DNA of 56,965 bases, from positions 1 to 56,965 of the IMG/VR virus record IMGVR_UViG_3300015200_000003. One strand, written 5' to 3'. The DNA is from a virus. Taxonomy: Duplodnaviria; Caudoviricetes. Made by a program: the position numbers and the translations under genes. Of this stretch, positions 15,305 to 47,239 are shown in pieces; position 1 is the stretch's first letter; every line of letters begins with the position of its first letter. The notes below the pieces were generated by a model. That model made no database searches, had not been told where the DNA came from, and worked only from the letters and a program-made list of their open reading frames with translations.

Positions 15305-15367
15305 TGTGTAGCACGCCAGGGCGAGACCCGTTGGGCCTCTGGGGAGGGGCGCAGACGGAGTCCCTGG

Positions 15368-24342: not shown

Positions 24343-25395
24343 ATGGCAACACGCAACTCCAATTTGCCCAATTGGATGATCGACGCGGCCGGAGCGCCGA
24401 GATCCGGCCGTATCCTGGACGACCCACCCCCCGAGGAGGAGGAGCGACCGATGGCGCTGCCACCACCACCCCCGCCCGATGGCGGCCTGCCGCCGATGCC
24501 CGGTGGTGGTGCCGACCCGATGGCTGCGCTCGCGGGAGCCGCTCCTGGTATCCTGGGTGGTGGGGGTCCACCTCCGCCGCCGCCTGGCCCGAGTTTCATG
24601 CCGCCACCTGACCTGGGTCCGCCCGGCGGCCTACCTCCGCTAGGCGGCCCAGGGATGCCCGGCCCCGGTGTTGGCCCGGGGCCGGGGCTTCCGCCTGGGG
24701 GTGGTCCTCCTCTTCCACCTCCGGGTGGCCCGCCTCCGGGTATTGGTCCGGGTATTCCAGGTATGCCTCCGGGTATTGGTCCGGGTATTCCGCCGCCCGG
24801 CACACCCATGCCGCTGATCCCGCCGACGGGTCCGCTGGCCGACCTGCCACCCCTGATGGAGCAGCGCCCACCCGCGCCGACGGGGCCGACCCCGCCGACC
24901 ATTGGTGTGGCGGGCGGCGGTGCGCCCGGCGCGCAGGCTCCGACCATGAACATCAGCAACTCCGTGGTCAACGTCGGCCAGCAGGATGTGGGAACGCAGG
25001 GCAACCCGGCCGCCCCTGCCTCGGTGCGACCAGGGGGCAGGGAACCATCCCCGCCACCGCCTTCAGCTGGACTCGGTGGTAACCTGTCCGACCTGCTGGG
25101 ACCACCCGAGGGTGTGTCAGATGTGGCACCCGCGCCATCGAGCGCGGCGGCGTTACCACCGTTTGAGCCGATTGCGGGCGCGGGCGCGCCGCCCCCACCA
25201 GGCCCGATGAACCTGCCGTCGGTGGAGGCTCCGCCGATGGAGCCTGCGCCGCTGCCTGAGGCTCCGATGGATCTGCCACCAGAGCCGCCGCTCGATCTTG
25301 GCGCTGCGCCGCTTGACCTGGGACCACCCGCCCTGCCAATGGAGGCTGGTCCGCTTGGCCCGTCCTGGAATTCTGAGGCGGGTGGCTATATCTGA
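24343..25395 (+). CDS. Extremely Pro/Gly-rich protein (350 aa)
   Basis: Open 1 kb frame, TGATG-coupled to the giant gene. Confidence 0.65.
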   Translation: MATRNSNLPNWMIDAAGAPRSGRILDDPPPEEEERPMALPPPPPPDGGLPPMPGGGADPMAALAGAAPGILGGGGPPPPPPGPSFMPPPDLGPPGGLPPLGGPGMPGPGVGPGPGLPPGGGPPLPPPGGPPPGIGPGIPGMPPGIGPGIPPPGTPMPLIPPTGPLADLPPLMEQRPPAPTGPTPPTIGVAGGGAPGAQAPTMNISNSVVNVGQQDVGTQGNPAAPASVRPGGREPSPPPPSAGLGGNLSDLLGPPEGVSDVAPAPSSAAALPPFEPIAGAGAPPPPGPMNLPSVEAPPMEPAPLPEAPMDLPPEPPLDLGAAPLDLGPPALPMEAGPLGPSWNSEAGGYI

Positions 25396-28300
25396 TGGCC
25401 GCCGAGTGGGAGGACTGGGGGTACGAGTACGAGGAGCCGGAGGCCGAGTACTACGACGACGCCTACGCCTACGAGGAGCCGGAGTGGGAGTACAACGACG
25501 ACGAGTACGAGTACGAGTACGACCCGTCGGAACTGTGGGCGGAGAGTGACGAGGACTACGGTGACGGGGGCGGCTACAGCTACGAGCCGCAAGAGTACGC
25601 CGAGTCGGTAGAGGCCGCTTACGCCCCGCTCCCGGAGCCAGAGCCGCTTGCCTATGCCGATCCGTACGCCCAGGCTGCACCTGAGACGGGTGAACTCGCT
25701 GCCACCGGTGACTGGTGGAGCGACCTGTGGAATGACACTGCGGCTACGCCAGCGAAACCCGTCGCCGCCAAGCCAGGCGAGAAGCCACCGATCAGTGATG
25801 ACTGGTGGACGAACCTCTGGAACGAGACCCAGCCAGCCGCCAAGCCAGCCGCGCAGCCAGCCGCCAAGGCCCAGAACCCGAACACCGTCGGCACCATCAC
25901 CACCTGGGCCGACGGCACGCCCATGTCCGAGAAGGAACAGAAGCAGGCCCGCGTCTACCAGATCGCCCTCGAAGAGGGGCTGAATGCAGAAGGTGCGCGG
26001 ACGATGGTCGCGGTCACCGAGACCGAGAACGGCCTGTTCGGCGCGGTGGGCGACACCGAACTGAACCCGCTCGGGTCACGCGGTCCCTACCAGTTCTACG
26101 AGGGCGGGCAGATGCCGGCCTTCCGCGCGTGGCTGAAGAACGAAGGCATCCCCGGCGACCCGAACGTGCTGGTCAACGACGTGGACCTGGCGACCCGATT
26201 CGCTGCGCGGAACTACCTGGGCGAGACGATCAAACGCGGTCAGTCGCAGGGGTTGGCTGGCGCGGACCTGGGGACGTTTACCCAACGGTACGGCCAGGTG
26301 TCGGTCAATCCCGAGAAGACCGGCCGCAACTACACCGCGCTATTCGGCGCAGGTGACCGGTACGCGGACGCCTTGCGGGTGGCCGTGCCGGACCCGGCCT
26401 CGCGTCAGACCGCCAACCAGAAGATCCCGCCAGGCCACTACGACGGCGATGGCCATGACCACGGGGTGGCCACCCCCTACACCCAACAGCAGACCGACAA
26501 GGCCGGCAACGTCTACACGGTCGCGTTCGACTACGACGCGCCGTACGACAACCCGTTCAACCCGGCGATCCCCCGCCACCGTGGGGTCGATCTCCAGGTG
26601 ACCGGGGTGCCGAACGGCGGCATGGACACGCCGTACACGGCGTTCAGAAGTGGCAAGGTCGCCCACATCACCAATGACCCGCACGGTGGGATCGGGATCA
26701 TTGTCGATACCGGCGATCCGAACGCCAGGTATGACCGCTACTTCCACAACAACGCCGTCTCGGTGAAGGTGGGCGACACCGTCACGGCTGGCGAGACCAA
26801 CCTGGGTCTGATCGGTGAGAGCGGGACGAAGGGCTTCCCGCACCTGCACTACGAGGTCTCCCAGGGCATCAACGGCGACCCGTCCGGGCAGACGATTGAC
26901 CCGCGCCCGTACATGAGCCGCCCGGTCGCTACCCCGGCCACCCGCGAGCAGGCGCGCACGCAGATCGCCGGCACCCAGTACCGCCCGGAGACGATCCCTG
27001 ACTGGTGGGCGGACTACTTTGGGCCGCAGGCCGCGCCCCCCACGCAAGGGCGTCCGCTTGTCGCCGCCGCCGCACCGGCCGCCGCACCAGCAGCGGCCCC
27101 CGTCCCACCCCCGCGCCAGATCGCCCTGAACACGCCGTACACCTCGGGCAAGCGCACCCAGACCGCTGGGGTGGTGATCCACGCGACCCACGGCGGGGCA
27201 GCCACGCCGCAGGAGGAGTTCGACTGGACCCTGCGCCACTTCGGGAACAACGCGGACCAGGTGTCCGCGAACGCCGTGATCGGCGCGGATGGGACGGTGG
27301 CCCTGGTTGGGGACTGGGACGCGACCACCCACCACGCGGGCGAGAACAACAAAACGATGTTCGGCATCGAACTGGCCCGCGCCAGGCCGGGTGAGGCGTA
27401 CACGGACGCGCAATACGCGAGCCTGGGCTGGCTGCTGGGCGAGGTCAGTAAGCGGTACAACCTGCCGCTGACCCGCCAGACCGTGGTCGGCCACGAGGAA
27501 CTGGAGCAGGGCAAGCGGTCGAACAAGATCGACCCTGGTCCCGAGTTCAGCTTCGAGCGGGCGATCACGGCTGCGGCTCCTCGTCCCGCCGCTCCCGCCC
27601 CGTCTACCCCCGCGCCTGCCCCAACGCAGGGTGCGGCGCGTCCAGCGCCACGAGGTGACGCTGACGTGGGACCACGCACCGGGGCTGGGGCAGCCGCCGC
27701 ACCAGCGCAACAGCAAGCGCTGCCAGCGGAGACCCAGACGGCGCTGACCGAGTGGCAGCGCTTCCGCCGCTCACGGGGGGAGTCCGAGACAGACATCGGA
27801 GCCTTCCGCGCCCACCTGGGACGGCTAGGCGCACCGGACCCGTGGGCGGCCGACGAGCAGGCGCGGGCTGCGGTGGAGCAACAGAACGCCGAGAGCCGCT
27901 CGACGTTCCTGGCCCAGCTTCCAGGACCGACCCAGCAGGCGTACATCGAGTGGGAAGCGATGCGGCGCTCGCGTGGCGAGGATGTCTCTGACATCCCGGC
28001 CTTTCGCGCGCACCTGGATCGACTGGGTGCGCCGAACCCGTGGACCCAACAGGAACAAGAGCGGGCGCGCGCCGAGACTGAGCGCGCGCAGATCGCGACC
28101 CGCAACGCCGAGATCGCGCGGCAGAACGCCGAAATCACGCGGCGGAACGCGGCGGTCCAGAGCGAGATTGATCGTCAGAACGCGGCGATCACCAGCATGA
28201 ACACCCACTATACCGAGCAGTTCGCCGCCGCCAAGCGTGAAGAGGCCGCGCTCGCGGAGTGGCAGCAGGCGACCCGTCTGCGTGCGGGCGACATGATGGA

Positions 28301-31300
28301 GCCAGATCCTGGCCCGCGCCCGTCAACCCCGAACCTGGATTGGCTCCAGCAGCGACAGGCCGCCGATCAGGACACCGGCCCGCGCGAGCAGACAGCTGTT
28401 CAGCGAGCGCCGCTGATCGCGCACACCGAGCAGCTGATCGCCAATCCTGACGCAGGGCCGCGCGAGGCGACTCGCGCCCAGAACCTCCAGCTTGCCGAGA
28501 ATCTGCGCCTTGCCGCTCCGCCACCACCACCACCGACGATTGCGCCGACGATTCCGGAACCCAGGGGCTGGGTGGACGACGCCAAGGACTGGATGCGGGA
28601 GAACCTGCCGCAGGATGGGTCACCGACCCCGGTGGGCCAGGTCGATCCGTACTGGCGCGACTGGTATCTGAGAAGTGGCGTTTCACCTGAAGAGGCGGAT
28701 CGTCTGGCGACCGTCACCGGCGAGACGCCGATCCAGGCGGGTGGACGGCTGGTGCGGGGTGCGGGCGAGGCCATCGCACCGTACGTCCCACCGGATGAGC
28801 CGAGGTACGGCCCTGGCGGCATCTACTCGGTCCCATCGGGCCAGGTCGATCCCGTCTGGCGCGACTGGTATCTGAGAAGTGGCGTTTCACCCGAGGAGGC
28901 GGATCGCCTGGCGACCGTGCCGACCTACACGACCGAGGTCTCGAAGGACCGCGAGGTCGTCATCCCAGCCCAGCCTGAGCGGTTCAGCGAGCAAGACTAC
29001 AACTGGATGATCGGAGCCGGTATCTCCGAGGAGGAGGCGCGGCGTCGGGCCACGTCCCCCGCCACGCCTGAACGGCGGACCCGCGTCAGTTACGGTGCGC
29101 CCGAGCAGATCGTGGACCCCAACCTGTCGGCTATCGACATCACCCAGCACGCTCTGGACCGTGCCAAGACTGGCGTCCAGACCGCGCTTCTGGGGGCCGC
29201 CACCGACATCGCTCAGCGAGTCGGGCGGCAGGACTGGGCGGACCAATTCCTGACTCAGCGTCAGGATGTCGAGGATGCTGCCATCGCCCGTGGTGCCTAC
29301 ATCACGGCGGCTGAGGGAGTACTCGACCCCCACACCCTGATCAACCCGACCGGACTCTACGAGTCGCTGATCGAGAACGCGCCTTCGACCGTTGCGAACC
29401 TCGCATCGCTCGCATTGGGTGGGTCGGGAATTCTGGCGAACGCGGCGCGTCTGCCGCGACTGGCCTCCGCGCTCTACACGACTGGTCGGGTGGCGGGGTA
29501 CGGTGGCCTTGCCCTTGGCGTGGTGCAGCAGGCTGCCGACACGCGCCGCGAGTTGGATGCTGAGGTGGCCAGCGGGCGCATCTCCCCCCAGATGGCGGAT
29601 CTCGCGGCGGTGTTCACGGGGTCGCTGGAAGGGGTCACCGAGCAGATCTTCCCTGGCGCTGATCGTGAGATCCGCCGTGGGTTGAACCACGCGGTGGCCG
29701 AGAATGTCATCCAGGCTGCCCGCCGACGAGGTGTCCATCTGGTTGGCGACCTGGGTCGTGAAATGGGTACCGAGGCTGCCGAGGAGATGCTCTCACAGAT
29801 CGGCCAGGAGGGAGTGACCCAGGCGCTCCAACAGGAGAAGCCGGGTCTGCTGGAAGCGCTCAAGAACGTCGTTGAGGCCGGGTTGGTCGGTGGTGCTTCT
29901 GGTGGTGGCCTGTCTCTCGCCAGCAACGCCGTTCAGGCTGGTGGCGCTGCCCTGGCTGAGCGTCGTCAGCAAGCGGCCTACGAGGCGTTTGTGGCAACCG
30001 CTGGTGACCCAGGCTTCCAGCTTGGGACACGGAACTGGGAGCAGGGGGCGAGAGCCGCGCAGCTTCCAGACTTCGTGCCGCTCGCGGACGCCCCGGCCCC
30101 GTTCGACATCCTGGCCGATCACGGTCTGCAGATGCAGCCGTCGAAGGCGGACTCTAGCCAGTTCATCGTGCGGCAGGTCTTGCCCGCCGAGCCAGGCGGG
30201 CAGCCAGGGGTGCGCACGTTCACCTTGAACCTGACGCCGCAGGGTACCTACCTGGCGCGCGAGTACAACGGCGAGCAGCCGGTGACCGCCGCCGCCTGGG
30301 CTGCGCCCAACCCAGCCACGGGCGCGGTCGGTGGGACGCCTGCCGATGTCGAGTTGGCGTCGAATCGCTTCCAGGCCGCGACCGCCACCCTGGCCGCGCG
30401 CGGGCTGTTCAGTGATGAGACCTCTCAGCAGTTAGGCGAGTCGTACCGCGCGCACATCCAGGGAGCGCTTGACCGCGCGAATGCAGCGCCATCCGCCACC
30501 GGTCAGGCGGGTGTGGCCCCACGGGCGTACCACATGCCTGAGAACCAGGCGGGCTACGAGGCGCGACGGGCTGCCGCGTACCAGCGGCAGGTTGAGGCGG
30601 CGCAGGCGCGCGGTGAGCCAATCCCACCCCCACCTGCGCACGAGGATGTGATCCCGCCAGAGAAGTGGGTCGATGTCGGTGTGGCTGCGGGGACGAACGT
30701 TCCCTTCCTGGCTGGTGCGCATCTGCCGGGTGATCTGGTCACGGCGATGCGTGACGACCCCGTCAACGCCGGCATCCTGGCGATGTCGGCGGGCGCGATG
30801 GCGTACGGCGACCAGTTTGCCCGCGAGGCCGGGGTGTTGCCACCTGGCGGCGAACGGCAGATGGTGGGGTCCGTCGCCCCAGGCGTCAACGCCTACAACG
30901 ACAATCGTGGCGCATACGACCCCAGGACTGGCACCAGCGCCCCTGGTCAGTACCACGTCAACTCGGGCCAGATCCTTATGTCGGCGCTGTATCGGCTGGC
31001 GAAGCGGCCGGTCCAACTCCCGAACGGGCAGACGACCACGCTACAGGCGGTGGCGGAGGCGAAGGGCGACACGATCTGGGACTTGCGCCGCAGTCGGTTG
31101 TTCCCGAGTTACGTGGCGCGGGTGATCGTGGAGCAGGCGGCGCACGAGTCACCGCACGATCTGGTCAAGGACCACAGTGCGATCCACGGGAACCTAACCG
31201 CCGGGTTCATGAACACGATGGTCGCTCACTACCAGCAAGTCCTACCGCTCGTCCAGCAGTGGCACGCATCGGGCGCACTGGACACCACCCTGCGGACCTA

Positions 31301-34300
31301 TGGCCGCCTCTTACAGGCGTCATCCGAGAATCCGACGTGGCAGAGGGAGGGGAACAACCTTGTTGCCGCACTCGAACAGCAACAGACTGGAAACCGAGGC
31401 GATGCAGGAGGTGCTGGTGTCGATGCTGGTGCGCTCAGCCGAGGAGGGCAACCAGGAGAAAGCGCAGTTCTACCTGCGGTCGGCGGAGCAGGCCGGAATG
31501 GATCCGGAGCAGGCGTTGCAGGCGGCGCAGCAACAACTCCCGGACAACGCACTGCTGGCGTCCCTGATCTCGGCCCGCCCAGCACCGACGGACGACCCAT
31601 CGCCGGCGTCCCCGATCTTGGACCCCCGCCTGCCCCAGGATCTCCGGCCGCTGGGACCGCTGCCGCCGGAGTAAGGGGAGCCAACCTGCCCAGGCTGCCG
31701 CGCGGGCGGCGGGGCGGTGTGGTCACGCCAGGGCGAACCCCGACGCCGCAGCAAAGCTGGAAGCAGGCCCAGAACCAGGCTGTCCGTCAGGATGCAGCCC
31801 TGAGGCAGGCCAGGCAAGCGCGGATTCCCATCGATGCGGGAGTCGCGGCGGCGCAGAGCATCACGGGGATGTTTGCTCGCCCAGACCAGATCGCGGCGAT
31901 GGGTGCGGATGGCCGTCCGCTGGCTGGACCCTCAGCGATGGTCAGCCAGGAAGTCGCGGCCTCGCTCCCGATCAAGGTCCGCCCGCTCGCCTCGTACCCA
32001 GAGGGATTCATGAAGGCGGCGGCGAACTCCTGGAAGATGGACAACGAACATACCCAGAATCCGCCGTACTTCGTTCCAGGGGTCGGGATGGTCTTCCCTG
32101 ACGTGTACCGTCAGGCGAACAAGGTGGACACCGACCGTCGCGCTCCACGCCAGATCGTCTACTACACCCTTTGGGTGGGCTATGACCCGGGCTACGGCGG
32201 CGGGCTGGCAAAGAACGATGTCGGGATTACCACCAAGGAGAAGGGTAAGGGGTCCAAGATCTTTGGTGAGCATGTGATGCGGAACCCGCTGGTGTACCAC
32301 GGCGGGGTGCTGCTCTCCGATCACATCAACCAGTTGCTCGACATCGTGGGTGAGTCACGCGACTACACCAACGCCGTGATCATCCCGATGTTCCAGGACG
32401 CCGCGACCTCGACGCCGACGGTCGAAAGCGTGACCTCGCTGATGACGCAGATGGGGTACGGGGATCCGACCCAGGCTCCGCTGCTGCTCGCGGCTTCTAA
32501 TGGCAAGTGGGGCTTCGACGCAGGCGGGCTGGCCGACCTGATCATCACCTCGATGCTGGGCTATGAGGGACGCGCCCGTGGATATGACGGGGTCATCACC
32601 TGGGCCGATCAGGGCGACGAGTACGGCGGTCGCTTCAAGCGAGCGTACCCGGTGGTCACCGAGGGTGCCAGCTTCATCGAGTGGACCAACCCTGGTACAG
32701 ACAACCAGGGGATCGCGCAGCTTGAACCGGGCATGTTCCAGAACCTGCCGACGCCGGTGATGGAGGCGCTCCTCGAATCCCACCGCCTCAAGAACGATCC
32801 GGAGGTCAACTCAGACCGCGTCCAAGCGTTGCTCGCAGAGGCGGACGCGGTGGTGCACGCGCACCCCATACGGCCGCACCTCAAGGGGTACTCCGTCCGG
32901 GACGGGCGGCTGATGTATCGCAACCGCGACGGGCTGCACGATACGGGGTACGCCGTCGAGGGCAATCAGCTGGTGTACCAGGGCAAGGTCCGCGAGGGGT
33001 ACGAGGTTCGCAACGGCCAGCTGTACTACACCGGCGGCGTCTCCTCGACCGAGGGGGGCGTCCCAGCGCCGCCGCCAACAGAACGTCTCACCTATGGCGA
33101 GTTCTTTGAGCAGTACCGTCGTCTGACGGCTATGCGCCAGACGATTGAGGGGTTCCCGCTGAATCATGTCCGTCGTGGAACAGCGCTGCAGGCCATTGTG
33201 GATGAGACGCGTGCATTGGTTGATGCGAACCCTGACCTGATGAAGCGGCTGCGCGAACAGGTGCGCCAGAAGAAACTCCAGAGGCAGCAGCAAGGGGGCC
33301 AACTCCAAGCGCCGTCCGCGATGGCAGCGGAGCGTCCGCCGAACCCCGACTTCCCGCACGGCCTCTACCCCGACGAGATGGTCACCCCGACCGCCCGCGA
33401 GGCGATGGCCTCCAAGGTCGCGCCGCCGCCGCGCCTGGACGAGAACGGGGATCCTGTCCCCGGCACGGGTGGCTGGGCTGGTCCGGGCGAACTGTCGCGG
33501 ATCGCCTACGAAGACCTGCCGAACCGCGAGATCTACGAGCAGGCTGGCTGGGTCATCCTCGATAACGGCTTCATCCCGCCGGGCATGGCAGCGGCGGCGG
33601 CGGCGTCGGAGGACGCCGAGGCCAGCGACGTAGTCAAGCCGAGCCGCAAGGAGTTGACGGCCCAAGCGACGGCGGATCGGTGGGCGGTCTGGCGACAGGT
33701 CATGCCGAACCTGCGCCTACCGCCGGGGATGCAGAACCTCGAAATGGAGGCGTTCCTCGACTACCTGGCGTCGTTCCGCTCGGGGATCGTGGACGGCACC
33801 ACCAAGCCCGAGGTTGGCGTGCTGGGGTCGCTGCTAGCGCTGGGATCGGTCAAGCGCTCCGGGCGGTCGTACGTCAAGACCCTGAACGCCCTGTCCGCCA
33901 CCATGGGACGGGAGCGCGCCTACGAACTGGTGATGCGGACGCTGCCCGACATCTACCCGCAGGGGCCGCCGTCGCCGCAGGAGAAGGGCCAGCTGATGCG
34001 GCCCGAAATCCTCTGGGCGATGTTGGCGGGCGACACCACCGACCCGGTCATGATGAAGATGCTGGTCGGCATCGCGCGCCCGGACAGCTTCCGCACCGAG
34101 GAGGAGCGGAGCGCTGCTATCGAGGCGGGGGTCAACCTGCTCTATCAGCGGATCGGCGCGCGTGGTCCTGACAACGAGCCGATCCTGGGGCGGGATGAGA
34201 CCCGCAGCAGTGCGTACCCGCAGGGCAAGCCGATCATGCCGGCTGTTCATGGGCGGGGCGAGGATCCCCAGAAGATCCTGGGAGCCTCCAGGACGCGCGT

Positions 34301-37300
34301 CAACCCCGAGACTGGGGTGGCCGAGATCCAGAAGGCCGGCACACCCTGGAGTCGCTCTGAGCCTGTTCGCTGGAACGAGTTGGTGCAGGCGGCGCAGGCT
34401 GTTGAGGGGGTCGCTGATCCGGACTCGCCGTACGCGGGGATGGAGCCAGGTGGCGAGGAGATGCGGCAGGCGATCATCAATCGCTTGATCGACGCCCACG
34501 CCGCTGGGATCGGGCCGGTCAAGTCGCGGTTCGCCGCCAGTATGACCGCGTTCCCAGACTACGCCACGCTCGACACACGGATGCTGCGTGACGTGTTCGG
34601 CCTCTCCCCGAAGCTGGTGATCCCGACCGTCGAGGAGTACGAGTACCTCTCGGCCAAGCTGGCTTCCATCGGGTCCGACAGCAAGTATCTGTACGGCCAC
34701 CAGTGGCTGCCGTGGGAGTACCTGACCGGCGAGAAGACCACCTACACGGCCCTGATCGGGGTGTACCAGCGGGTCAACGCCTACCTGCAGAACGCCGAGG
34801 CTCGAGCGGCCGAGGAGGGCGTCCCGCTGGCGGATGTCCTGGAGGAGACCAGCCTGGCCGAGCAGCGGCGGCTGGTCAGCTACGCCAAGCCGGAGGACAC
34901 GACCGCGAGGATCGGGTTGGCGTTCCGCCCAGCGGAGGTTGACCAGGACGCCGAGGGTCACGAGGCGATCATCCAGGCGCTGGAAGCTGGCACGGCCGGG
35001 GTCGGAGCGATCAAGACGGCGTTCCCGCAGCTGTTCAACCTGCTGGACGACGCCGGCCTGGAGATCGTAGACAAGATCGGAATTGGCCTCGGCGGCTGGA
35101 AGCAGCAGAAGGACGGGACGTACTACCTGGACCGCAACTTCAACCTCCAGGTGACCGGTCCGAAGGCGTCGGTTCGCTGGTTCTCTGCCGCCATGCTCCA
35201 GGCGCTGCCCGAAGAGAAGGCGGTGATGCTGGTCTACGAGGGACCAGGATCCGTCAAGCAGGATCACTGGGGCGGCCTGACCGTTACGGGCATGACCCGC
35301 GAACACTTGACCGCGTTCACCGCCGAACTGTCAGACGTGTTCGGGGACGGCTGGACCATCACCGCCAAAGCGCGGACGGCCAAGGGCTACCCGGGGGTGA
35401 AAGACCCGACCACCGGCAAGCGAGGTGCGCGGGACGACCGCGAGATCGAGCGAGCCGGCAAGGGTGGCGAGGTCTTCGACGTGCAGGTGCTGGCCGGCGC
35501 GGTCAAGGCGTACGGCGGTAACGGGATCGCGCTGCGCAAGCAAGTATCGAACGTCATGCGAGGTCTTAGCAGAAGAGGCTATACTCCTGAGAGATCTGAG
35601 ACCGTACGGGCTGAACTGGAGTTCATGGACCGTGCAGAAGCAAGAGAGGTCGTCCGTGGAGGACCAGCCGGAGCAATTGCCTACGAAGGACCAACGCCTG
35701 TTCGACTTCAGCGGATGGCGCGACGAACCCGACCTGACGCCCGAAGAAGAGGCGGCGTACCTCCAGGAGATCGAGGAGGCGACCGCGAGGCGGGACAAGG
35801 AAGGGTACCGAGCGACGATCTATCTGGGCGGGAAGAACTTCTAGCCGGCCCGTCAGCGATGGTGGCGGAGCCGATTGCCCGCACCCTCGCTGGCCCGGTC
35901 ACCATCCCCGAGGATCCGTCCTTCCGTGAGGCGGTTGCCAACACACCCGGCGCGGCCTTGACCGACGACGGGTTGGCGGTGGACTTCATCCGCTATCAGG
36001 TGCCAGAGCAGGAGGCCGCAGAGTCGGTCCGCTCGGGCGTCTTCACGATGGCAGCGGGTGTGCCATCCCGTGATCGCACCTACAAGGTCCAGCCGGGGAC
36101 GGTAGGGCGGTACCACGGCGGCACCCAGCGGGTGGCTGGGCGGACCCTGTTCAAGCGCCCGCTGGTCGTCAAAGCCGGTCAGGGTGGCGCGCTGGCCGGA
36201 AATGCCTTCAACCGCATGTACGCGGACGAGCATGGCGACTGGCAGACCGAGGCGCGGCGTGAGCAACGGGCGGCCAAGGCGGCCCTGGACGCTCACCAGG
36301 CGACCGCCGAAGCGGATGCCGCGCAGCATAACCGCGCTGACGGGTACACGCAGTCGGAGGGCTTCTACGAGCGACTGCGGACGCTCCAGTGGCAGGAGCG
36401 CGCCGCTGGCGGCCGTCCGTACGACCGGCTTCTGACGGAGATCGACCTCGCCCTGATTGAAGGCGGCACGGATCCAGACCAGCGATCCGAGTCCCTGGCC
36501 CCGGTCCTAGAGAAGTGGGGAGTGGACGACGGGAGCGCCTACGAGAGGGCCGAGAACATCGCCTACAACGCCAACCGTGGTAACCAGTCGCGCTTCGCCG
36601 CCTCGGAACTGGTGACGGCGTACGTGCTGCGACGGAACGGCTACGACGGGGCGGTCGCCTACTCGGGTAGCTACGGCAACGCGGCACAACTGGGCGAGTT
36701 GTTCGATGTCAGGGCGATCACCTACCCGACCGAGTCTGGCGATGTAACGCTGCACCCGGACTTCCAGCCGTCAGAGATGGGGCCGTCCGCCATGGCGGCC
36801 CAGGGGCCGTCACACCCCGCCCTGATCCGTGCGCAGGCGCGCGCCGTCGAGCGTGGCGTTGCCCGCATTCGCGACGACGCCGCCGAGTACGTGCAGCTGG
36901 CGGGCATCCGTCCGTCGATCCCGCTGACGGCGTACGGTCGGCCGGACCCCGACCTGGGTCAGCGGATCGCGGAGTTCTACGACACCGCGCCCGATAGCCC
37001 GGACGACCCCCAGGTTCGGGCTGCGTACGACGCCCTGAACGACGAGGTCAACGACCAGTACCGGTTCCTGGTCGATAAGGGCGTGACGTTCGTCCCGTAC
37101 TACCTGGAGGGGCCGGCTGGCGACGGGGCCGACTTCAACGGGTACGCCTCCAGCCGCGACATGGTCCGTGATCTGGGCGAGAACAACCGCCTGTACGTGT
37201 TCGCGGACGCGCTCGATCACCCGCTGATGTCGCCGCCAGGCATCCCGTACGACCAGTCCGACAACTGGAAGTTCCGCGCGGTCCACGACTACTTCGGCCA

Positions 37301-40300
37301 CGCCAGCCTGGGCAACGAGTTCGGTCCACAGGGCGAACTGAACGCGTGGCTTGAACACATGAAGATGTTCACGCCGCTGGCGATGCGGGCCGCCTCCACC
37401 GAACTGCGCGGCCAGAACAGCTGGACCAACTACCTGCCAGCGAACGCCCCGATGCCGCTGCCTGACCGACCGTTCGCGGACCAGAAGGCGTTCCTGCTGC
37501 CGCCCTGGGCGACCAACGTCCCTGAGGTGTACCCAGAGGCCGGTCCCAGCCGTGCGACCGAGGGACCGGTCACCGAGACCCGCCAGAAGGTCGAGTACGA
37601 AGCGGCCCAGTTTGGCAGGCTGCAGAACCTGGATGAGGTGGCGGTCATCCACTTCTCCCCAGAAGGCAACACCGCGACTGCCAGCTTGACACTGGGTGAT
37701 CCGTCAGCGGCTGACCTGGTGGCGGATGCGTTCGAGGAGACGGGCTGGCACGTCGAGACGCGACCGGTTGAGGGCGGGGTCGAGGTCTTTGTGGCGGCCC
37801 GCGACACCCGCTACGCCGAGGGGCGTGAGCGGATCGATCAGATCGTTGAGACGCTGTCTGGGCGCGGTGTGGATGTCACGCCATCGCACGCCTTGGCAGA
37901 TCTGGTAACATTTGGGCCAGGAGATTACGATGCCATTATCCGACGCGGACCGGGAGAGTTTGAGGCTGGAGTTGCGGGAAGTGCTGTCGCGACGGCTGTC
38001 CCCGGAGGAGTTGGCACGGGGACAGGCCAACTCGGAACAAACACGTCAGGAACAGGATCCGCAGACGCGCTCGGTGATCGGGATACCCCGCAGCTAGCTG
38101 GCCCGTCGGCCATGGCGTCCCAGCCAGCCGACCCGGAGTTGGTTGAGCGGGCCGTTGCTGAGTTCGGGCTGACCGAAGATCCAGCCGAGGCGTTCTACGT
38201 CCTGCCTGACGGGCGGATGCTCAACGCTAGCCTGCCTGGTCGCGCCGGTCGTCGTATCGACCACGACCAGATCCTGCGGGCCTACGACGGCGAGGGCGAT
38301 GACCGCGTCGAGCGCCGCCCCAGGAGCGCGGGCGAGCGACTGAACTACACGTCGTACGTTGACGACTTCCTGGAGCGCACCGGTGCGATGCGGTGGAGCC
38401 TGGGATATCCGTCAGGGTCGCTTCGTGCATCGGTTGCGCACCCGCCCACGCGATCCCAGCAAGATCTCGTATTGGCGGAAGCACGCTACGTCGATGAGGT
38501 GGTGTTTGAGCAGCCAGGGGTGGACCCGTCGGCTACGCAGTACGACATGCCACAGGATAGAGGCCGCTTGGCCACCGATGTTCGTCGTGGTGGTGCTGCG
38601 CCGCTAGGTCCGTCCGCGATGGCGTCGGCCCTTCCTGACGACTCACGTCTTGATGCGGCGATACGCGGGACGGCAGGGGTTCACCGCACACCAAACGGAA
38701 TCCGCGTCGAACACGCCGCCCGTATGCAGACAGAAGAGCAAGGTGGGCAACCCGCCCTGCGTCCCCTGCACTACCTGTTGAGCGCTGAGGACGCACGAGA
38801 GTACTACACCTACGATCCTTCGGTTGCAGGGTTGCAGGCTGCTGGTGGCGGCGTCCTGATTGATGTCCCGAAGCTGCTGCGACGGCCATATGTCGTGGAG
38901 ACGGAGCAGTACGTCGCAGCGCAAGCCCTGTGGGATCTGTTCCCAGCCGCTCCTGACGGAAACGGGACTGTCGTTGATGCTGATCTTCGTGCTGTTCTTG
39001 ACCCGTTCAATGCGAGCGGATACGAGGTAACGCCTGAACTCCAGCAAGCGACCGCCGCTCTCGCGCAGCGGTACGGCCTGGACGACGGGTATACGGACAC
39101 GCTGCTGGGCATCGCGTCCAGGTTGTCGCCCGCGCAACGGTCACCCTTCATCTATGACGCCCTGGCCGAAGAGATTGCTGGGGCCGAGTTGCGCCGACAA
39201 GGTTATGACTCAATTATCGGTGTGAGTGAAGCCACCGGCTCCTGGGTGATCTCTGAAATCGCTGACTTGCAAGAGGCGGCGAGTCCGATCCCGGGGCGAC
39301 CGCCGTTCCTGCGCCCCGAGTACCAACAGGCAGGGCCGTCCGCGATGGCGTCCGACCGCCCGTTCGGCGGGTCTGCCAGCGCCTACCACGCTGCCGTCAT
39401 CCAGCAGTCCCCCACCCTCCAGGCCGCAGCCGCCGAGTCCGCCGCCACCCTCCGAGACAACCTAGCCGACGCGCTCTCCGAAGACGAACTGTTCAGCTTC
39501 GGGGTAGACGAGCGCGACCAGCGGGTTATCGACGGATTTGCGCAGTTCTATACCAGCGCGGTCATTGGTCTCGCCGCGAACGATGCTGAGCGGCTCGACT
39601 CCATCGGGCTGACGCCAGCCCAGGCGGAAGTCGAGCGCGAGCGGGCGCTCGATCTGCTCGGGACCAATGAGCGGATGACGGCGCTGTACGAGGCCGAGGC
39701 GGCCTGGTCCGTCCTTGCTGGGCCAGCCTACGGTGAGCGGCTGGGACCGTCAGCGATGGCGGCCACAGGGCCACCGAAACTGGCCGAGCCGTTCTTCTCG
39801 CCGCTGCTCCGTCACACGGGCAACTTGCCCGAGATCATGACGGGCGTCGATGAGGTTCGCACCCCCGACAGGACCGTGCCGGAGCGCGTCGTCCGCCGCG
39901 CCAACACGATCCGCCCAGGCGAGACCCCGAGACCGAACCGTGACGGCACGGTAACGACCGTGGTCGCGCCTAACGGCGACTGGGTCCAGCCGGAGCGCAC
40001 CCTGCCTGGCGAGGTGACGCCCGCTATGACCCCTGGTCAGCAGGCGCTGGCGATCCTGGTCGAGGCCGGTGCCAAGCCAGACGAACTGACCTGGACGGGG
40101 CTGCGGCAGTGGCTGACCCAGCACACGGGCGAGCAGCTGACTCGCGTGGAGGTGTCCGACTACCTTCAGGACAACCAGGTGCAGATCGAGGAGGTGTTGT
40201 ACGAAGGGAGGGACGCGCGCTGGGCTGGCCCCGACTATGACCTCCTCACGCCAGGCGGCGAGAACCAACGCGAATTGCTGCTGACGTTGCCGCAGTCAGC

Positions 40301-43300
40301 CGTAGCAGACGCCAATGATCGCGCCGTTGCCGCCCTGGAGGCCGAGGTCGCAGCACTCGGCCTGCCGACCAACACGACGGAAGACCGGATCAAGGAGGCC
40401 GGCGGCACCGAGGATCTAGCCAAGCGCTGGACCCGTTTCAAGCTGTACGGCGACATCGGGTTGCCGTACGACGCCTTCAGAAGCAGCCACTGGGAGGATC
40501 CGAACGTCGTAGTCTGGGTCCGCTTCAATGAACGTATCGACGCTGACGGCAAGCGGGTGCTGTTCATTGAGGAAGTCCAGAGCGACTGGCACCAGACCGG
40601 CCGCAAGGGGGGCTACGCCGGTGCACCGCGCGCCCTGACAGCAGCAGAGGCGTCGGAGCGCGAGGCGTTGCGAGAGCGCCTGAAGGCGATCCAGGCGGAG
40701 CAGCGCCAGATCAATGAGCAGTACCTGGCGGATATCCCGCTCTGGAGCGCGGCGGCGGCGAATGCACTGCCGCGCGATGCACGCGCGCGCCGCGATGCAC
40801 TCCACCGCGAAGGTGTTGATGCCAACGTCCGCCTGGCTACGCTGGGAAACATGGAGAAAGGGATTGGTGCCGTCCCTGACGCCCCGTGGAAGGCCACCCC
40901 AGCCTGGACCGGGCTGGCCATGCGGCGGATGATCCGATGGGCGGCCGAGAACGGGTTCGAGCGGATCGCCTGGACGACGGGTGACCAGCAGAACAAGCGC
41001 AGCAGCCTCACCAAGCACATCAGCGCCGTCGCGTACAGTGGGTCCGACTTCCGCGCCTGGAACCACGATGGAGAGGAAGTCATCAGCCAGACCGGCGTCC
41101 GCGAGGAAGACCTCCCCAAGTACCTGGGTGAGGAGGTAGCCGCACGGCTGCTGGCCCAGCCGCCCGAAGGGACACTGCGTCGTCTGCATGGGCTGCAACT
41201 GGAGACCGGCGGCAAGCCGATGCGCGACTTCTACGACCAGATCCTGCCTGGTGTCGCGGAGGACATCGGTAAGACCTGGGGCGTCAAGGTCACGACGACC
41301 ATCCTGCCCGCCCCCGAGGGCCAGGATCCGTACATCCAGGATCGTGGCGGTTGGTATTCGGTTCACGACAGCGACGATAAAGAGATCGAGCAGTTCGACC
41401 GAGAGGATCAGGCCGAGGCGTACCTGGAAGACCACTGGTGGGATATGGTGGCCGGTCAGCCCGCCGAAGTCCACGCCATGGACCTACCGCCGCTGATGCT
41501 GCGGTCTGCCCTGGAAGAGGGCCAGCCGATGTTCATGGCCAGCGGTCGTCCTGAGCCTGAGGGGATGCTGCCGCTCTGGGACGAGATGGACTCGCCCGAC
41601 GTGCTGGACCAGGAGATCATCGACGCCATCGAAGCCTACTCCGCCGGCATGGAGATCGATGACCCCAACGCCCTGCCGCGCACCGACGGGCCTGAGCAGA
41701 TCGGCCTGATCCTGCCGACCCCCGAGCCGCCCGTGCGCCCCGAGGATATGCCGACCCCGGACCCCATGCTGGGACCAGCCCTGCCAGGCGCAGCCGTGCC
41801 AGACATGTCTCTGCTGGGGCCGGTCTATCCCGACGACATGAACCTGGATCAATTCCCAGAGTGGGCGCAGGGAATGCTCCAGCTGGGTGACTGGGCCGAC
41901 CCAGGGCAGCTACCCGGGACTAAGAGCGAGATCGATGACGTACTCGACCTGGTGGCGAACGGGGGGCAAAAGGGGCTGCTCAACGCCCAGGAGCAGAAGG
42001 TGTTGGCCGCCGCCATCCTGCTGCAGTGGGCGCGGCTGAAGCGGGCGACGGAGCAGACGACGGAAGGCAACCTCTCGCCGTACGGTGCCGCCAAGGTCGT
42101 GGAGGAGTCCCGTCGGTACACCGCGTTGCGTGGCCTCGCGGCCCTCCCGCGCGCGCAATGGCCGGTGCTGGCCGAGGTCTGGCAGTCGTCTCCGATCACG
42201 CAGGGTGAAGGCCAGACGCTTGAAGACTTCCTGCAGGCGCAGAACGTGGCCCGCTCGGCTGGGGATACCGAGGGCGAGAAGCAGGCCCAGCAGGCGGCGA
42301 TTCAGCGGACGGCGAAACTGGCTGGCGGGTCGAGTAGCCGGAAGTTCGGGATCGGCCCGACCCGTCCGAGTGACGAGGCGCAGAAGGCGCGGAAGCTGGG
42401 TGCGGCCGTGGCGGGGGCGATCAATTCGCCAACCACCAATCCGTCGAACGCGGGTGCGGCGCTGGCCGACGCTGACCTGTCGGTCTCTCCCGTCGAGTTC
42501 TTGCTGGCGATGCGCTACAACAACGTGCTGCTCGGGCCGAGAGGCATCCTGGTGGACTACGTCACCAACTCGGGGATGCTGTTCGGCAAGATGATGGCTG
42601 ACCCGTTCCTGCTGACTGCCTCCGAGGGGGTGGTCAACCCGGTTGCCTGGGCCGCCATCAACGCTGCCGAGTACGCGGCGCTCGCGCGGGCGGTCCCGCT
42701 GATGATGGCCCGCATCGGACGGACGCTGATGACGGGCGTCTCGGATCTCGAATCCGAGGTGACGGGTACCCCGCGCACGATCAGCGGGCGGTTCGGGCGA
42801 CGGATCGAGATGGCTCAGGACGAAGGTGTTCACTGGTACGAGCCGAGGATGCTGGCCCTCCAGACCAGTCGGGTCGCGGCGATCACCTTCGCTGAGGCGG
42901 CAGGGCGGCTGAAGTCGATTGCCGACGTGGGGATCAAGGAACTGGCGTTTGGGATGGAGCAGACCCGGCAGGCTGCCATCATGGCCTACCGTGAGGGGAA
43001 CCACAAGGTCGGCTCGAAGGCGTGGCACGCCCGTGTCGCGGAGATCCTGGCGGGCAACATCAACCCGCAGGCGAAGACCCGTGAAGAGAAGGCGGCGGCC
43101 CAGAACACCTACGAGCAGATGCTGGCGAACAGCAAGCGAGAGGCCGAGCGCACCACCTTCCAGGGACCGATGGGGCAGCTGGGGCGGATGATGGAGCCGC
43201 TCCAGCGCCACCCACTCGGGCAGTTCGTCCTGATGTTCCTGCGGGCGCTCTACCACATCCAGCACTGGGCGATTGACCTCTCCCCCATCGGGGCGATGGC

Positions 43301-45013: not shown

Positions 45014-47239
45014 ATGTCGGTGCCGCGACCACCTAGCGGGGGGTATGACGACCTGGTCCCTGGGTTCAACCCGACCCCGACACGCACGCCGTACCCGACG
45101 CGCACGCCGTACCCGACCAAGGAGCCGACGCCGACGAGGACGCCGTCCCCGACGCGCACACCAGCCCCGACCAGGACGCCGTACCCGACCAAGGAACCGA
45201 CGCCGACGCGCACCCCGACGCCGACGCGCACCCCGACGCCGACGAAGGAACCAACGCCCACCCATACTCCAGGACCAATCGGTCCCGGATCCCGTGGTGG
45301 GCAGATCACCATCCGCGATGTCAAGCCAGCCACCATCGACAATGAGCGCTGGGTTCAGATCAAGGAACTGGTCTACTCGCCAGCGGTTGAGGCGGCTATC
45401 GCCAAGCAGGCCCGAGGGGAGCGGCTGGACGAGGAAGAGCGCCGCGAACTCAACGCGGCCAACGCGGTCATGGCGTCAGAGGTTCGCCGCGCAGAGCGGA
45501 AGGAGCCGATGTACCCGGACCTCGTTCCAGGGACACCTCCAGCGGCGGACGCGACCGCGACCCCTGGTCCGCTTGAGGAGATCACGGGAGCCGCCGCGTC
45601 GGCCACGGTCGTCCCAGGGACACCAACTCTGGAAGCCACGCCAGACCTGGGGCCGCCGGCCGCTGGCGCTGGTCCGTACGCACCGGGTGTCCCGCTCGAA
45701 GTGATCGACCAGAGCGGCACGCGCATGACCATGACGCCCGAGGAGTTCTACGAGATCCCCGAGTACATCCGAAGCACGATGACGGTGGTCGGCCCCGACC
45801 CGGCGACGGCGGCAAGGACGGCATCGCCATCGAGCGCAGCGCTGGATCCGATCTACGGGGGCGAGTCAGGGCCAGCGCTGACACCACAGTCCGTGCTGAC
45901 GCCACCTGCCGAGGTAGTTCCACCACCGTCGCCAGAGCAGGCACCCATAGTCCCGCCACTGACGCCTGCGCAGCTTGCTGCGGCGAGTCCGGGGTCCGAA
46001 GATGCACTGTTGGGTCAGGCGCAGAAGGACGCCGCTGCACGAGCAGCCGCTGCCCCGAAAGCGCCACCGAAAGCGCCGCCTCCACGCCGTGAGCCGCTCG
46101 CGCCAAGCTATCCCGGTGAGGGGCCGAGCGGCCGACCGGGTACCCCGACGACCAAGCCGGCTCCACCACCGGACCTGTCGCCGCCGAAGCCAGCAGCGCC
46201 CCCACCGCCCCCACGGCCACCGTTCGCAGACGATCCCGAGGGTAAACCGCTGGCCCCGAATCGATTCACCCGCGCCATCGCACGGGCTGGTGGGAAGCCG
46301 ACCCAGAAGGTAGCCGAGCAGGCCGCTGGTGAGATCCGCGACGTGTTCCGCCCAGGAGATCAGGGTGGCTGGCGCGGCGACACCGGTGGCTGGCGGACGC
46401 TGGCGCAGCGGGCGGCTGAGGCGTGGGAGGAGCAGTTCAAGGCTGACCCCAACTCACTGCGACCCTCTGAGCGCGAGGCGTACCGTGCGGATCCGAAAGC
46501 GTTGTACCGCACGATTCTGGACGCCAACAGCCCGTTTGCCGACTACCGCGAGTCCTACATCGGCGCGGTCCGCGCAGGTCAGCTGGGTGTGCCAGGGGGA
46601 GCCGAGTTCGCAGAGGAACTCCGTCCGTACGGCGCGGCCCCCTCACGAGACATCCAGACGACGGATCACCCGGGTGTCCCCCGTGAGATGACACCGTCCG
46701 GGCGGACGCTGCCTGGCGCACCACTGCCAGCGGCGCGCGACATTCAGACGACCGATCATCCAGGTGTCCCCCGCGAGATGACCCCGAACGAGCGAACGCT
46801 TGAGGGCGCACCGCTGCCAGGCGGCCCAGACCTGTCAGGCACCGGCAGCCTGGTAGACGACCTGACGACCGCGCCGGAGCCTGGACGGGTCGTGCCGTTG
46901 CCTGGCGAGGAAGTACTACCCGAATCCGACGCGGCCGTGATCATCCTCGGGACACCGGACCTGTCAGCGCCGCAGTCGGCGGACCAGATGATCGAGCCAG
47001 AGATCGACCAGGGCATCGTCGCGTACGGGGATGAGGGCGCGTACGATCAGGGCAGCTATGACCAGGGCGAGTACGCGGGCAGCGACTACAGCCTGGATGA
47101 CCTCTACGCCTCCGAGGAGCCGGTCTACGAGTACGACGAGTACGGCGAGGGCGGCGACGACGAATACGAGGGTGAGGGTGACACCTACGCCTACGAGGAA
47201 CCCTCCTACGAGTACGAAGAGTACGTGGAGTACGCCTGA
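45014..47239 (+). CDS. Pro/Thr-repeat protein with an acidic Tyr-rich C-terminus (putative virion protein)
   Basis: AGGAG at 45001-45005; PTRTP(Y/T)PT repeats at 45071-45270; duplicated [17 protein letters not shown]. Confidence 0.7.

What the first reader, a model, noticed from the sequence alone, without database searches (positions are those of the whole stretch)
31346..38097. Three nested +1-frame genes with their own RBS hidden in the giant ORF: candidate built-in antidotes
Seen: ORFs 31360-31674, 35656-35844 and 37930-38097 are all in the +1 frame and each has an SD sequence. Two have -10-like boxes (TATACT 35580; TGG-TAACAT 37903). Over these stretches the main frame becomes G/R/A filler with many A/T-ending codons, while the +1 frame reads as charged helical protein. 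The stops are made by rare main-frame codons (GTA-AGG; CTA-G), and two lie 2 nt before a GPSAM linker. Inference: each module ends with a separately expressed small protein that could inhibit or chaperone the adjacent enzymatic domain, i.e. toxin-immunity pairs overprinted within a polyprotein.
Basis: partly seen in the sequence, partly recalled or inferred. Interest (0 to 1): 0.8.

Follow-up and report, generated by a model that had tools for sequence, protein, structure and literature searches.

The report
Small genes nested in giant phage gene
Inside the 6,515-codon virion-protein gene of an uncultured soil phage, three short stretches carry the marks of protein-coding DNA in a second reading frame; one is very probably, one possibly and one doubtfully a real hidden small gene, and nothing yet shows that they act as antidotes.

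Summary
The window is a 57-kb viral contig. ORF 25395-44942 is a giant polyvalent virion protein cut into modules by eight (G/A)PSAM linkers. In 40-codon windows over the whole ORF, another frame beats the main frame in only three places. These are the three reported stretches, and the frame is always +1. Main-frame GC3 falls there to 0.36-0.48, against 0.81 overall and 0.60-0.67 in ordinary linkers. Each +1 ORF has a Shine-Dalgarno sequence and a start codon where the signal begins. Two of the stops lie 2 nt before a linker. Independent metagenome assemblies repeat the sequence, and relatives at 82-98% protein identity keep all three ORFs at full length.

The three ORFs are not equally convincing.
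- **ORF1:** its head (codons 2-54) is invariant in relatives, beats a synonymous-codon permutation null (p=0.0008), and folds as a confident helical bundle.
- **ORF2:** only the last 24 codons look selected in +1.
- **ORF3:** the evidence is weak.

Most +1 replacements are synonymous in the main frame, so the linker reading is selected too.

My best reading is older small genes that the giant frame reads through, still translated from their own start sites. The toxin-immunity idea, the -10 boxes and "each module" are not supported.

The parts
25395..44942 (+). Giant ORF (6515 codons). A polyvalent virion protein of a phage, carrying Peptidase_M23 and Amidase_2 domains near the N-terminus.
   Evidence: TerL lies upstream at 12222-14147. 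One module matches genes annotated 'large polyvalent protein' or 'lysin' in GenBank phages.
31345..31352 (+). Shine-Dalgarno-like GGGAGGGG. Its GGAGG core ends 9 nt before TTG 31360.
31360..31674 (+). ORF1, +1 frame, 104 codons (TTG to TAA). An alternative start is ATG 31402.
   Evidence: The exact protein was called by gene finders on 6 contigs, and 5 variants at 95-99% identity exist.
31363..31521 (+). ORF1 head (codons 2-54). No amino-acid replacement in 5 variants. Part of the predicted helical bundle.
   Evidence: 0 of 53 codons replaced against 7 of 50 in the tail, Fisher p=0.005. AF2 pLDDT 86-94 for residues 11-70.
31554..31628 (+). Main-frame repeat AGVPDLGPP, two copies (31554-31580 and 31602-31628) lying under the ORF1 tail. 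The 6 nucleotide differences between the copies are all synonymous in the main frame.
   Evidence: Read directly. One search shows the tail replacements are all main-synonymous.
31143..31175 (+). The only HExxH motif of the giant protein (spacing HExxHxxxxxH), about 70 codons upstream of ORF1. A candidate zinc-peptidase site.
   Evidence: 1 found against 0.085 expected. No family support.
35643..35649 (+). Shine-Dalgarno-like AGAGAGG, 6 nt before GTG 35656.
   Evidence: Unchanged in L002.
35656..35844 (+). ORF2, +1 frame, 62 codons (GTG to TAG). The stop lies 2 nt before the linker.
   Evidence: Variants of 62 aa at 87-90% identity. DNA of a relative is in L002.
35770..35841 (+). ORF2 last 24 codons. 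All 4 substitutions against L002 are synonymous in +1 and non-synonymous in the main frame.
37919..37923 (+). Shine-Dalgarno AGGAG, 6 nt before ATG 37930.
37930..38097 (+). ORF3, +1 frame, 55 codons (ATG to TAG). The stop lies 2 nt before the linker. This is the weakest of the three.
   Evidence: Variants of 55 aa at 91-89% and 82% identity.
31926..31940 (+). GPSAM linker 1.
33309..33323 (+). APSAM linker 2.
35847..35861 (+). GPSAM linker 3, preceded by CTA-G, which gives the +1 TAG.
36780..36794 (+). GPSAM linker 4.
38100..38114 (+). GPSAM linker 5, preceded by CTA-G, which gives the +1 TAG.
38607..38621 (+). GPSAM linker 6, also preceded by CTA-G (+1 TAG), but with no coding-like +1 ORF upstream.
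39333..39347 (+). GPSAM linker 7.
39744..39758 (+). GPSAM linker 8.
35859..36791 (+). Module between linkers 3 and 4. It is absent from the relative L002, a cassette gain or loss exactly at the linkers.

Best explanation
The giant gene encodes a head-packaged polyvalent protein made of modules joined by a conserved peptide linker, (G/A)PSAM. The linker is most likely a protease cutting site.

Three of the connecting stretches are older small coding sequences lying one base out of frame. The giant frame reads through them and obtains a Gly/Ala/Arg/Pro-rich flexible linker. The small ORFs keep their own ribosome-binding site, start and stop. On this reading they are still translated by internal initiation on the late mRNA, as separate small proteins.

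Selection is shared out along the DNA:
- The head of ORF1 (about 55-70 residues, a helical bundle) is held in the +1 frame.
- The last 24 codons of ORF2 are held in the +1 frame.
- The rest is held in the main frame.

Shown: the coding signature, the signals, intactness in relatives, and the substitution pattern.
Inferred: translation of the +1 frame, and any function.

My odds that each is a functioning gene are about 0.65-0.7 for ORF1, 0.45 for ORF2 and 0.3 for ORF3. A partner or inhibitor role for ORF1 towards the HExxH domain just upstream is a guess, at about 0.1-0.15.
For: 1. **Codon signature.** It switches to +1 only in these three places: 18 of about 648 windows (map). ORF1 and ORF2 score like real genes, 0.45 and 0.51 against 0.38 +/- 0.18. 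The antisense frames score lower.
2. **GC3.** Main-frame GC3 of 0.36-0.48 is below that of three ordinary linkers, 0.60-0.67. The G/A linker of gene 47239-49860 gives a junk +1 reading.
3. **Start signals.** Each ORF has an SD plus a start codon at the onset of the signal, with spacing like the GGAG sites of this phage's own genes.
4. **Not an assembly artefact.** Identical contigs from other runs cover 35056-35693, 34995-35694, 37553-38271, 37968-38477 and 37808-38028. The stretch is held in runs of 22 studies.
5. **Relatives keep start, stop and length.** ORF1 has 5 variants of 103-104 aa. ORF2 has 3 variants of 62 aa. ORF3 has 2 variants of 55 aa, down to 82% identity.
6. **ORF1 specifically.**
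   - Permuting synonymous main-frame codons gives a lower +1 score in all but 0.08% of 5000 trials, and the +1 frame stays open in only 11.5% of them.
   - AF2 gives pLDDT 86-94 over residues 11-70, with 63 of 104 residues at 70 or more. A control +1 ORF from the same gene gets a mean of 44, with 0 of 104 at 70 or more.
   - 0 of 53 head codons are replaced, against 7 of 50 tail codons.
7. **ORF2 against L002, at 91% nucleotide identity.**
   - In the last 24 codons, 0 changes fall at main position 3. The flank rate is 0.172, giving P=0.011, and Fisher against the flanks gives 0.019.
   - All 4 changes there are +1-synonymous, including AGG>CGG, and all alter the main-frame residue.
   - The TAG stop survives a 3-nt deletion in the linker.
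   - L002 has a +1 stop two codons before the GTG, so entry from upstream is excluded there.
Against: - There are no expression data of any kind.
- 21 of 28 +1 replacements in relatives are main-synonymous (binomial p=0.006). The main frame is therefore selected, and large parts of the +1 ORFs evolve as if free.
- The first 38 codons of ORF2 change at main position 3 at 0.158 per codon, against a baseline of 0.172.
- The permutation test is not significant for ORF2 (p=0.08) or ORF3 (p=0.18). Most of the +1 score follows from the main-frame residues and codon counts.
- ORF3 scores 0.03, like the junk +1 reading of an ordinary G/A linker at 0.06.
- Within ORF2 alone the 5'/3' contrast is marginal (Fisher 0.07; 0.053). 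The zone boundaries were chosen after seeing the data.
- The variants were found through intact ORFs of similar length, so broken copies would have been missed.
- SD+start sites are common in this purine-rich frame: 36 in the giant ORF, 12 of them inside the stretches.
- Outside this lineage the only hits are to repeat proteins, matching a short motif.
- The ORF2 fold was uncertain in the complex job, with pLDDT under 50.
- The AF2 comparison has only one control.
Confidence: 0.5

Rival explanations
1. Fossil frames. The three stretches are remnants of coding sequence, either small genes captured whole or gene ends put out of frame when the modules were fused. They are no longer translated or no longer useful. 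Only the giant frame matters now, and the low GC3 has simply not yet decayed.
For: - 21 of 28 +1 replacements are main-synonymous and often radical.
- The first 38 codons of ORF2 and of ORF3, and the ORF1 tail, drift at about the neutral rate.
- There are no homologues elsewhere.
- Module homologues are separate genes in a distant relative and in Streptomyces phage Dagobah, so fusion did happen.
- Out-of-frame remodelling of genes is documented in E. coli (PMC8788219; I saw only the search listing and abstract).
Against: - The ORF1 head has no replacement, against 7 in the tail.
- The last 24 codons of ORF2 show the opposite pattern to drift.
- ORF1 beats the permutation null and folds confidently.
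- An intact SD, start and ORF on a late mRNA would be translated by default.
Confidence: 0.28
2. By-product of the linker. The main frame is selected for Gly/Ala/Arg/Pro residues with rare A/T-ending codons and SD-like GGA-GG runs, for example to pause ribosomes at module borders. That composition by itself gives an open, Glu/Asp/Gln-rich, high-GC3 +1 frame with chance SD+start sites.
For: - The permutation null already gives +1 scores of 0.29, 0.40 and -0.05.
- GGA is enriched 29 of 224 against 47 of 6291.
- CTA precedes 3 of the 8 linkers, one of them without any coding-like ORF upstream.
- Ordinary linkers also have lowered GC3, at 0.60-0.67.
Against: - Main position 3 in the first 38 codons of ORF2 changes at the neutral rate, so it is not held A/T.
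- ORF1 exceeds the null (p=0.0008) and folds.
- The last 24 codons of ORF2 show a +1-synonymous pattern.
- A G/A linker elsewhere in the phage gives a junk +1 reading.
Confidence: 0.08
3. Recoding. Ribosomes on the giant frame shift +1 inside the stretches. This gives the upstream part an alternative structured C-terminus and ends translation just before the next module. A related version has ribosomes that finish a nested ORF restarting at the Met of the linker, 11-14 nt downstream.
For: - In ORF2 and ORF3, constraint appears to hand over from the main frame (5' part) to the +1 frame (3' part), ending in a stop next to the linker.
- SD-like runs lie inside the stretches.
- The +1 stops lie 14 nt before the ATG of linkers 3 and 5, and 11 nt before it in L002 and at linker 6.
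Against: - There is no main-frame stop and no recognisable slippery site. I compared with the release-factor-2 type of site from memory, not by a tool.
- In ORF1 the order is reversed: the +1-constrained head comes first.
- The codon signature starts at the SD/start, not in mid-stretch.
- L002 has a +1 stop just before the GTG.
Confidence: 0.09
4. Assembly or sequencing artefact: paired indels.
For: The source is a metagenome-derived contig.
Against: - Identical independent contigs exist from other runs.
- The exact ORF1 protein is recorded on 6 contigs.
- The relative L002 has the same frame layout at 91% identity.
- The +1 frames end in stops, so no in-frame repair exists.
Confidence: 0.01

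Closest known systems
Embedded spanin genes Rz1 inside Rz of phage lambda (PMC5295617 and PMC6139136; I saw only the search listing and abstracts)
   Same: A small phage gene with its own start lies wholly inside a larger gene.
   Different: - Here the host gene is a 6515-codon polyvalent virion protein.
- There are three nested ORFs, all lying in inter-module linkers.
- The small frame, not the large one, carries the native codon signature.
- There is no lipoprotein signal and no lysis context.
- Partnership between the two products is unknown.
Polyvalent proteins of phages and conjugative elements (Iyer et al. 2017, PMC5512222; I read passages found by term search)
   Same: - A giant multi-domain protein encoded beside virion genes.
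- It has peptidoglycan-hydrolase domains.
- Proteolytic release of its modules is proposed.
- One module matches a gene annotated 'large polyvalent protein'.
   Different: - A repeated (G/A)PSAM linker is not mentioned in the passages I saw. The words 'linker' and 'frameshift' occur 0 times in that paper.
- No Pfam large-polyvalent-protein domain or metallopeptidase model matched here.
Toxin-immunity or toxin-antitoxin gene pairs (general knowledge)
   Same: A small ORF lies directly behind an enzymatic-looking domain.
   Different: No toxin domain, no immunity family and no supported contact were found. The pairing is by position only.
Out-of-frame remodelled genes and overprinting in viruses (PMC8788219, PMC8227390; I saw only search listings and abstracts)
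   Same: One stretch of DNA carries a coding history in two frames.
   Different: In classic overprinting the new frame looks atypical. Here the nested frame looks like the older one, and the host frame is the newcomer.

Membership tests
Embedded overlapping gene (Rz/Rz1 type) | ORF lies wholly inside a longer ORF on the same strand, in another frame | tested here: met
Embedded overlapping gene (Rz/Rz1 type) | Own ribosome-binding site and start codon | tested here: met
   Such sites are not rare in this frame: 36 in the giant ORF.
Embedded overlapping gene (Rz/Rz1 type) | Purifying selection on the nested frame | tested here: inconclusive
   There are signs of it in the ORF1 head (0 of 53 against 7 of 50 codons replaced) and in the last 24 codons of ORF2 (P=0.011). 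It is absent from the other parts. DNA of only one relative was available.
Embedded overlapping gene (Rz/Rz1 type) | Both products are made | not testable with these tools
   No RNA holder was listed. No proteomics data were available.
Polyvalent protein (Iyer et al. 2017) | Very large multi-domain protein of a phage, encoded among the virion or late genes | tested here: met
Polyvalent protein (Iyer et al. 2017) | Zincin-like metallopeptidase (MPTase) or another processing domain | tested here: inconclusive
   There is one HExxH motif but no model match.
Toxin-immunity pair | A recognisable toxin domain next to the small ORF | tested here: not met
   No family match in Pfam, PHROGs or by PDB sequence for the domains upstream.
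Toxin-immunity pair | The small protein belongs to an immunity or antitoxin family | tested here: not met
   only DUF7466 at E=0.044, below its cut-off. add nothing.
Toxin-immunity pair | The small protein binds and neutralises its neighbour | not testable with these tools
   This needs an experiment. The one complex job gave no answer (see Tried and rejected).
Programmed +1 frameshift site (release-factor-2 type; its features are recalled from memory) | A slippery codon with an in-frame stop or hungry codon, and an SD-like stimulator just upstream | tested here: not met
   The main frame has no stop in the stretches. L002 has a +1 stop two codons before the GTG.
Listeria-Bacteroides repeat (Flg_new, PF09479), considered for ORF2 | Match to the family model | tested here: not met
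   The model was not matched at E<=1. The phmmer hits rest on summed 28-residue repeats.

The most novel reading that the evidence does not exclude
The nested ORFs are working parts of how the giant polyprotein is made and cut.

- ORF1, encoded right after the only HExxH (candidate peptidase) domain, would be a separately made helical partner or inhibitor. It would hold the protease in check until the protein is packaged.
- ORF2 and ORF3 end 14 nt before the Met of the next module. They would act as ribosome on-ramps: ribosomes enter at their SD, stop next to the linker and restart at that Met. The phage could then make downstream modules without translating the first 10-13 kb.

Unchecked earlier notes of this scan suggest that small genes nested in the linkers of giant phage virion genes are a recurrent design.
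Probability: 0.1. Interest if true: 0.8.

Novelty: new variant of a known kind. Interest (0 to 1): 0.55.

Why it matters
Gene finders suppress genes nested on the same strand inside a longer gene. Small proteins hidden in the linkers of giant phage genes would therefore be missed as a class.

If these ORFs are real, three things follow:
- Polyvalent virion proteins can grow by reading through neighbouring small genes in another frame without killing them.
- A disordered linker and a folded small protein can share the same DNA, with selection divided between them along its length.
- The giant protein gains candidate regulators, for example of its presumed processing protease.

Two further features make this locus a good case for studying how such giant modular proteins are assembled and processed. 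One is the (G/A)PSAM linker. The other is a relative that differs by one whole module exactly at two linkers.

Tried and rejected
- **Complex prediction.** The C-terminal 330 residues of the upstream module (34665-35654) with ORF2 gave score 0.00, meaning 'no answer'. This is not evidence either way.
- **RNA.** No RNA holder was listed for 31000-38500. Nothing can be said about expression.
- **Population variants.** Laid contigs were mostly identical, and the table of differences was cut (69 rows not shown). No SNP test was possible in the stretches.
- **Homology of the three peptides.**
  - Pfam: nothing above cut-off.
  - tblastn against GenBank phages: 0 hits each at E<=1.
  - IMG/VR pattern scans: 0 relatives.
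  - GTDB genome scans with the ORF3 and ORF1 alignments: 0.
  - ESM Atlas for ORF1: no usable hit.
  - No similarity among the three peptides or to the rest of the window.
  - phmmer of ORF2 against 1.84 billion representatives: one true relative. The other 67 hits were read as motif-level matches. The 7 that I scanned included 6 Listeria-Bacteroides repeat proteins.
- **Giant homologues.** None of 3583-11402 aa. No close relative of the modules in 35859-37928 in IMG/VR.
- **Upstream domains.** No family in Pfam, PHROGs, PDB sequences, Atlas or tblastn. The exception is phrog_3170 (unknown function) for the module before ORF3.
- **Fold search.** The ORF1 model against the PDB gave 0 matches at E<=0.001, only generic helical bundles.
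- **Promoters.** 0 promoter-like sites.
- **GPSAM as a nucleotide signal.** Rejected, because synonymous positions vary among the 8 copies.
- **Antisense genes as the source of the signal.** Rejected, because they score lower.
- **Earlier notes of this scan searched by sequence.** Nothing.
- **Supplementary files.** Those of PMC5512222 were not seen and may list related architectures.

Full report
**What the locus is.** The window is a whole IMG/VR viral record of 56,965 bases with 67.4% G+C, judged 62% complete. A large terminase gene lies at 12222-14147. ORF 25395-44942 encodes 6515 residues. It has Peptidase_M23 and Amidase_2 domains near the N-terminus. One module matches genes that GenBank phages annotate as 'large polyvalent protein' or 'lysin'.

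In a distant relative that also shares the terminase (MW202675.1), the matching module lies in one of several separate large genes behind the portal gene. In Streptomyces phage Dagobah it is a free-standing 188-codon gene. The giant ORF is therefore a fused polyvalent virion protein in the sense of Iyer et al. 2017 (PMC5512222; I read passages by term search).

Eight (G/A)PSAM motifs divide the ORF into nine segments. Their synonymous positions differ, so the motif is kept as a peptide and not as DNA. I read it as a protease cutting site. That is an inference.

**The observation.**
- All three ORFs are present as described, in the +1 frame.
- Each has a Shine-Dalgarno-like sequence 6-9 nt before its start. 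The spacing resembles the GGAG sites in front of this phage's ordinary genes.
- The ORF2 and ORF3 stops are formed by the rare Leu codon CTA followed by G, 2 nt before the linker. CTA is 17 of 497 Leu codons.
- Main-frame GC3 is 0.81 overall but 0.36, 0.38 and 0.48 in the ORF1 head, ORF2 and ORF3. Three ordinary low-complexity linkers of this phage have 0.60-0.67.
- With a codon model trained on the phage's own genes, 18 of about 648 forty-codon windows of the giant ORF have another frame beating the main frame by more than 0.25 bit per codon. All 18 lie in the three stretches and all are +1. A six-frame map shows the same three switches and no others.
- ORF1 (+0.45) and ORF2 (+0.51) score like real genes (0.38 +/- 0.18). 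ORF3 (+0.03) does not, though it is far above ordinary +1 chunks (-0.64 +/- 0.24). Antisense frames score lower.
- ORF length alone is unremarkable: there are 39 +1 gaps of 60 codons or more.

**It is not an artefact.** The stretch is held in runs of 22 studies of soil and leaf litter. Identical contigs from other runs cover the start of ORF2 and all of ORF3. The exact ORF1 protein is on record from 6 contigs.

**Relatives.**
- ORF2 searched against 1.84 billion representatives found one true relative, of 62 aa and 90% identity. Its cluster has 3 members.
- ORF1 has 5 variants at 95-99% identity.
- ORF3 has two variants of exactly 55 aa, at 89-91% and 82% identity.
- Start, stop and length are kept in all of them. 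The searches could only find ORFs of similar length, so this result is biased towards intact copies.
- One metagenome contig, L002 (1642 nt), gave DNA. It is 91% identical to 35337-35870 and to 36780-37914. It lacks the whole module between linkers 3 and 4.

**Which frame is selected.**

*ORF2 against L002.*
- The flanks change at main codon positions 1, 2 and 3 at 0.067, 0.028 and 0.172 per codon (459 codons).
- The first 38 codons of ORF2 behave the same way (0.026, 0.053, 0.158). They carry 7 amino-acid changes in the +1 frame.
- The last 24 codons behave in the opposite way (0.125, 0.042, 0). All 4 changes there are synonymous in +1, including AGG>CGG, and all alter the main-frame residue.
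- P for zero position-3 changes is 0.011, and Fisher against the flanks gives 0.019.
- Within ORF2 alone the contrast is only marginal (Fisher 0.07).
- L002 keeps the TAG stop despite a 3-nt deletion in the linker. It has a +1 stop two codons before the GTG.

*ORF1 and ORF3, protein variants only.* I mapped each replacement to its minimal nucleotide change.
- ORF1: 7 of 7 are single changes at +1 position 2, synonymous in the main frame.
- ORF2: 5 of 7.
- ORF3: 9 of 14.
- Together that is 21 of 28 (binomial p=0.006).
- The so-called filler is therefore itself under purifying selection.
- The ORF1 tail overlies a main-frame repeat, AGVPDLGPP in two copies, whose six differences are all main-synonymous (read).
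- Replacements avoid ORF1 codons 2-54 (0 of 53 against 7 of 50, Fisher 0.005) and ORF3 codons 39-54 (p about 0.03, boundary chosen after the fact).

**Is the +1 signal more than composition?** I permuted synonymous main-frame codons, keeping the residues and the codon counts. The +1 score stays high in the null: 0.29, 0.40 and -0.05. Much of the signal therefore follows from the odd main-frame residues and codons. ORF1 still exceeds the null (z=3.0, p=0.0008; +1 open in only 11.5% of trials). ORF2 (p=0.08) and ORF3 (p=0.18) do not.

AlphaFold2 folds ORF1 into four helices with pLDDT 86-94 over residues 11-70 and a low-confidence tail. That boundary matches the conservation pattern. A control +1 ORF of the same length from the same gene gets a mean of 44, with no residue at 70 or more. 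There was only one control. The fold has no specific match in the PDB.

**Interpretation.** The three stretches are best read as older small coding sequences that the giant frame reads through to obtain a flexible linker.
- ORF1 is very probably still a working small gene. Its product would be a helical bundle of 55-70 residues plus a drifting tail.
- ORF2 may work through its last 25 residues.
- ORF3 is doubtful.
- I favour translation by internal initiation. The signals sit at the onset of the signature, and in L002 the +1 frame is closed just upstream of the ORF2 start.
- The rivals (fossil frames, a by-product of linker composition, and recoding) are not excluded and are scored separately.

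Only three of the nine segments carry such a stretch. No neighbouring domain or nested peptide matches a toxin or immunity family. The -10 boxes get no support.

One lead remains. The only HExxH motif of the 6515 residues (0.085 expected by chance), with the spacing HExxHxxxxxH, lies about 70 codons before ORF1. That this spacing resembles metzincins is my recollection. No model confirms a peptidase.

Earlier unchecked notes of this scan describe small +1 genes nested in the linkers of giant phage genes in at least six other genomes, some of them behind zinc-peptidase domains. None shares sequence with these ORFs. I did not test those notes.

**Novelty.** Embedded same-strand genes are known in phages; Rz1 in Rz is the example (PMC5295617, PMC6139136; listing and abstracts only). 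My searches found no report of small genes nested in the linkers of polyvalent proteins, and 'frameshift' and 'linker' occur 0 times in PMC5512222. The searched library omits most subscription journals, and I could not see supplementary files. I rate this a new variant of a known kind.

Noticed in passing
window 35859-36791, compared with L002 positions 508-531: A relative at 91% nucleotide identity lacks one whole 311-codon module exactly between two GPSAM linkers. The modules therefore behave as cassettes that are gained or lost at the linkers.
   Followed up: partly
window 35841, 38094, 38604: The rare Leu codon CTA (17 of 497 Leu codons) directly precedes 3 of the 8 linkers and each time makes a +1 TAG 11-14 nt before the module's Met. 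The third case has no coding-like +1 ORF upstream.
   Followed up: partly
window 31143-31175: The single HExxH motif of the giant protein, with a third His ten residues after the first. It is a candidate processing peptidase with no family match.
   Followed up: partly
window 25395-25620: The first 75 or so residues of the giant protein are extremely acidic and rich in Tyr, Glu and Asp.
   Followed up: no
window 49500-49860: The 873-codon gene after the giant ORF ends in a very long poly-Asp/Glu tail. Its G/A-rich linker at 47590-47790 served as a control.
   Followed up: no
window about 27700-29300 (main frame): The giant protein has internal repeats. A segment of about 35 residues beginning ALTEWQRFRRSRGE occurs twice, and a motif like DPYWRDWYLRSGVSPEEADRLATV occurs two to three times (read).
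   Followed up: no
window 35668-35754 (ORF2 residues 5-33): A short motif, PTK...F.FSGW..EP, resembles the core of Listeria-Bacteroides (Flg_new) repeats. This produced the summed phmmer hits. The Pfam model itself does not match.
   Followed up: yes
L003 (MW202675.1) 8057-16719: A distant relative has three to four separate large genes behind the portal gene where this phage has one fused giant gene.
   Followed up: partly
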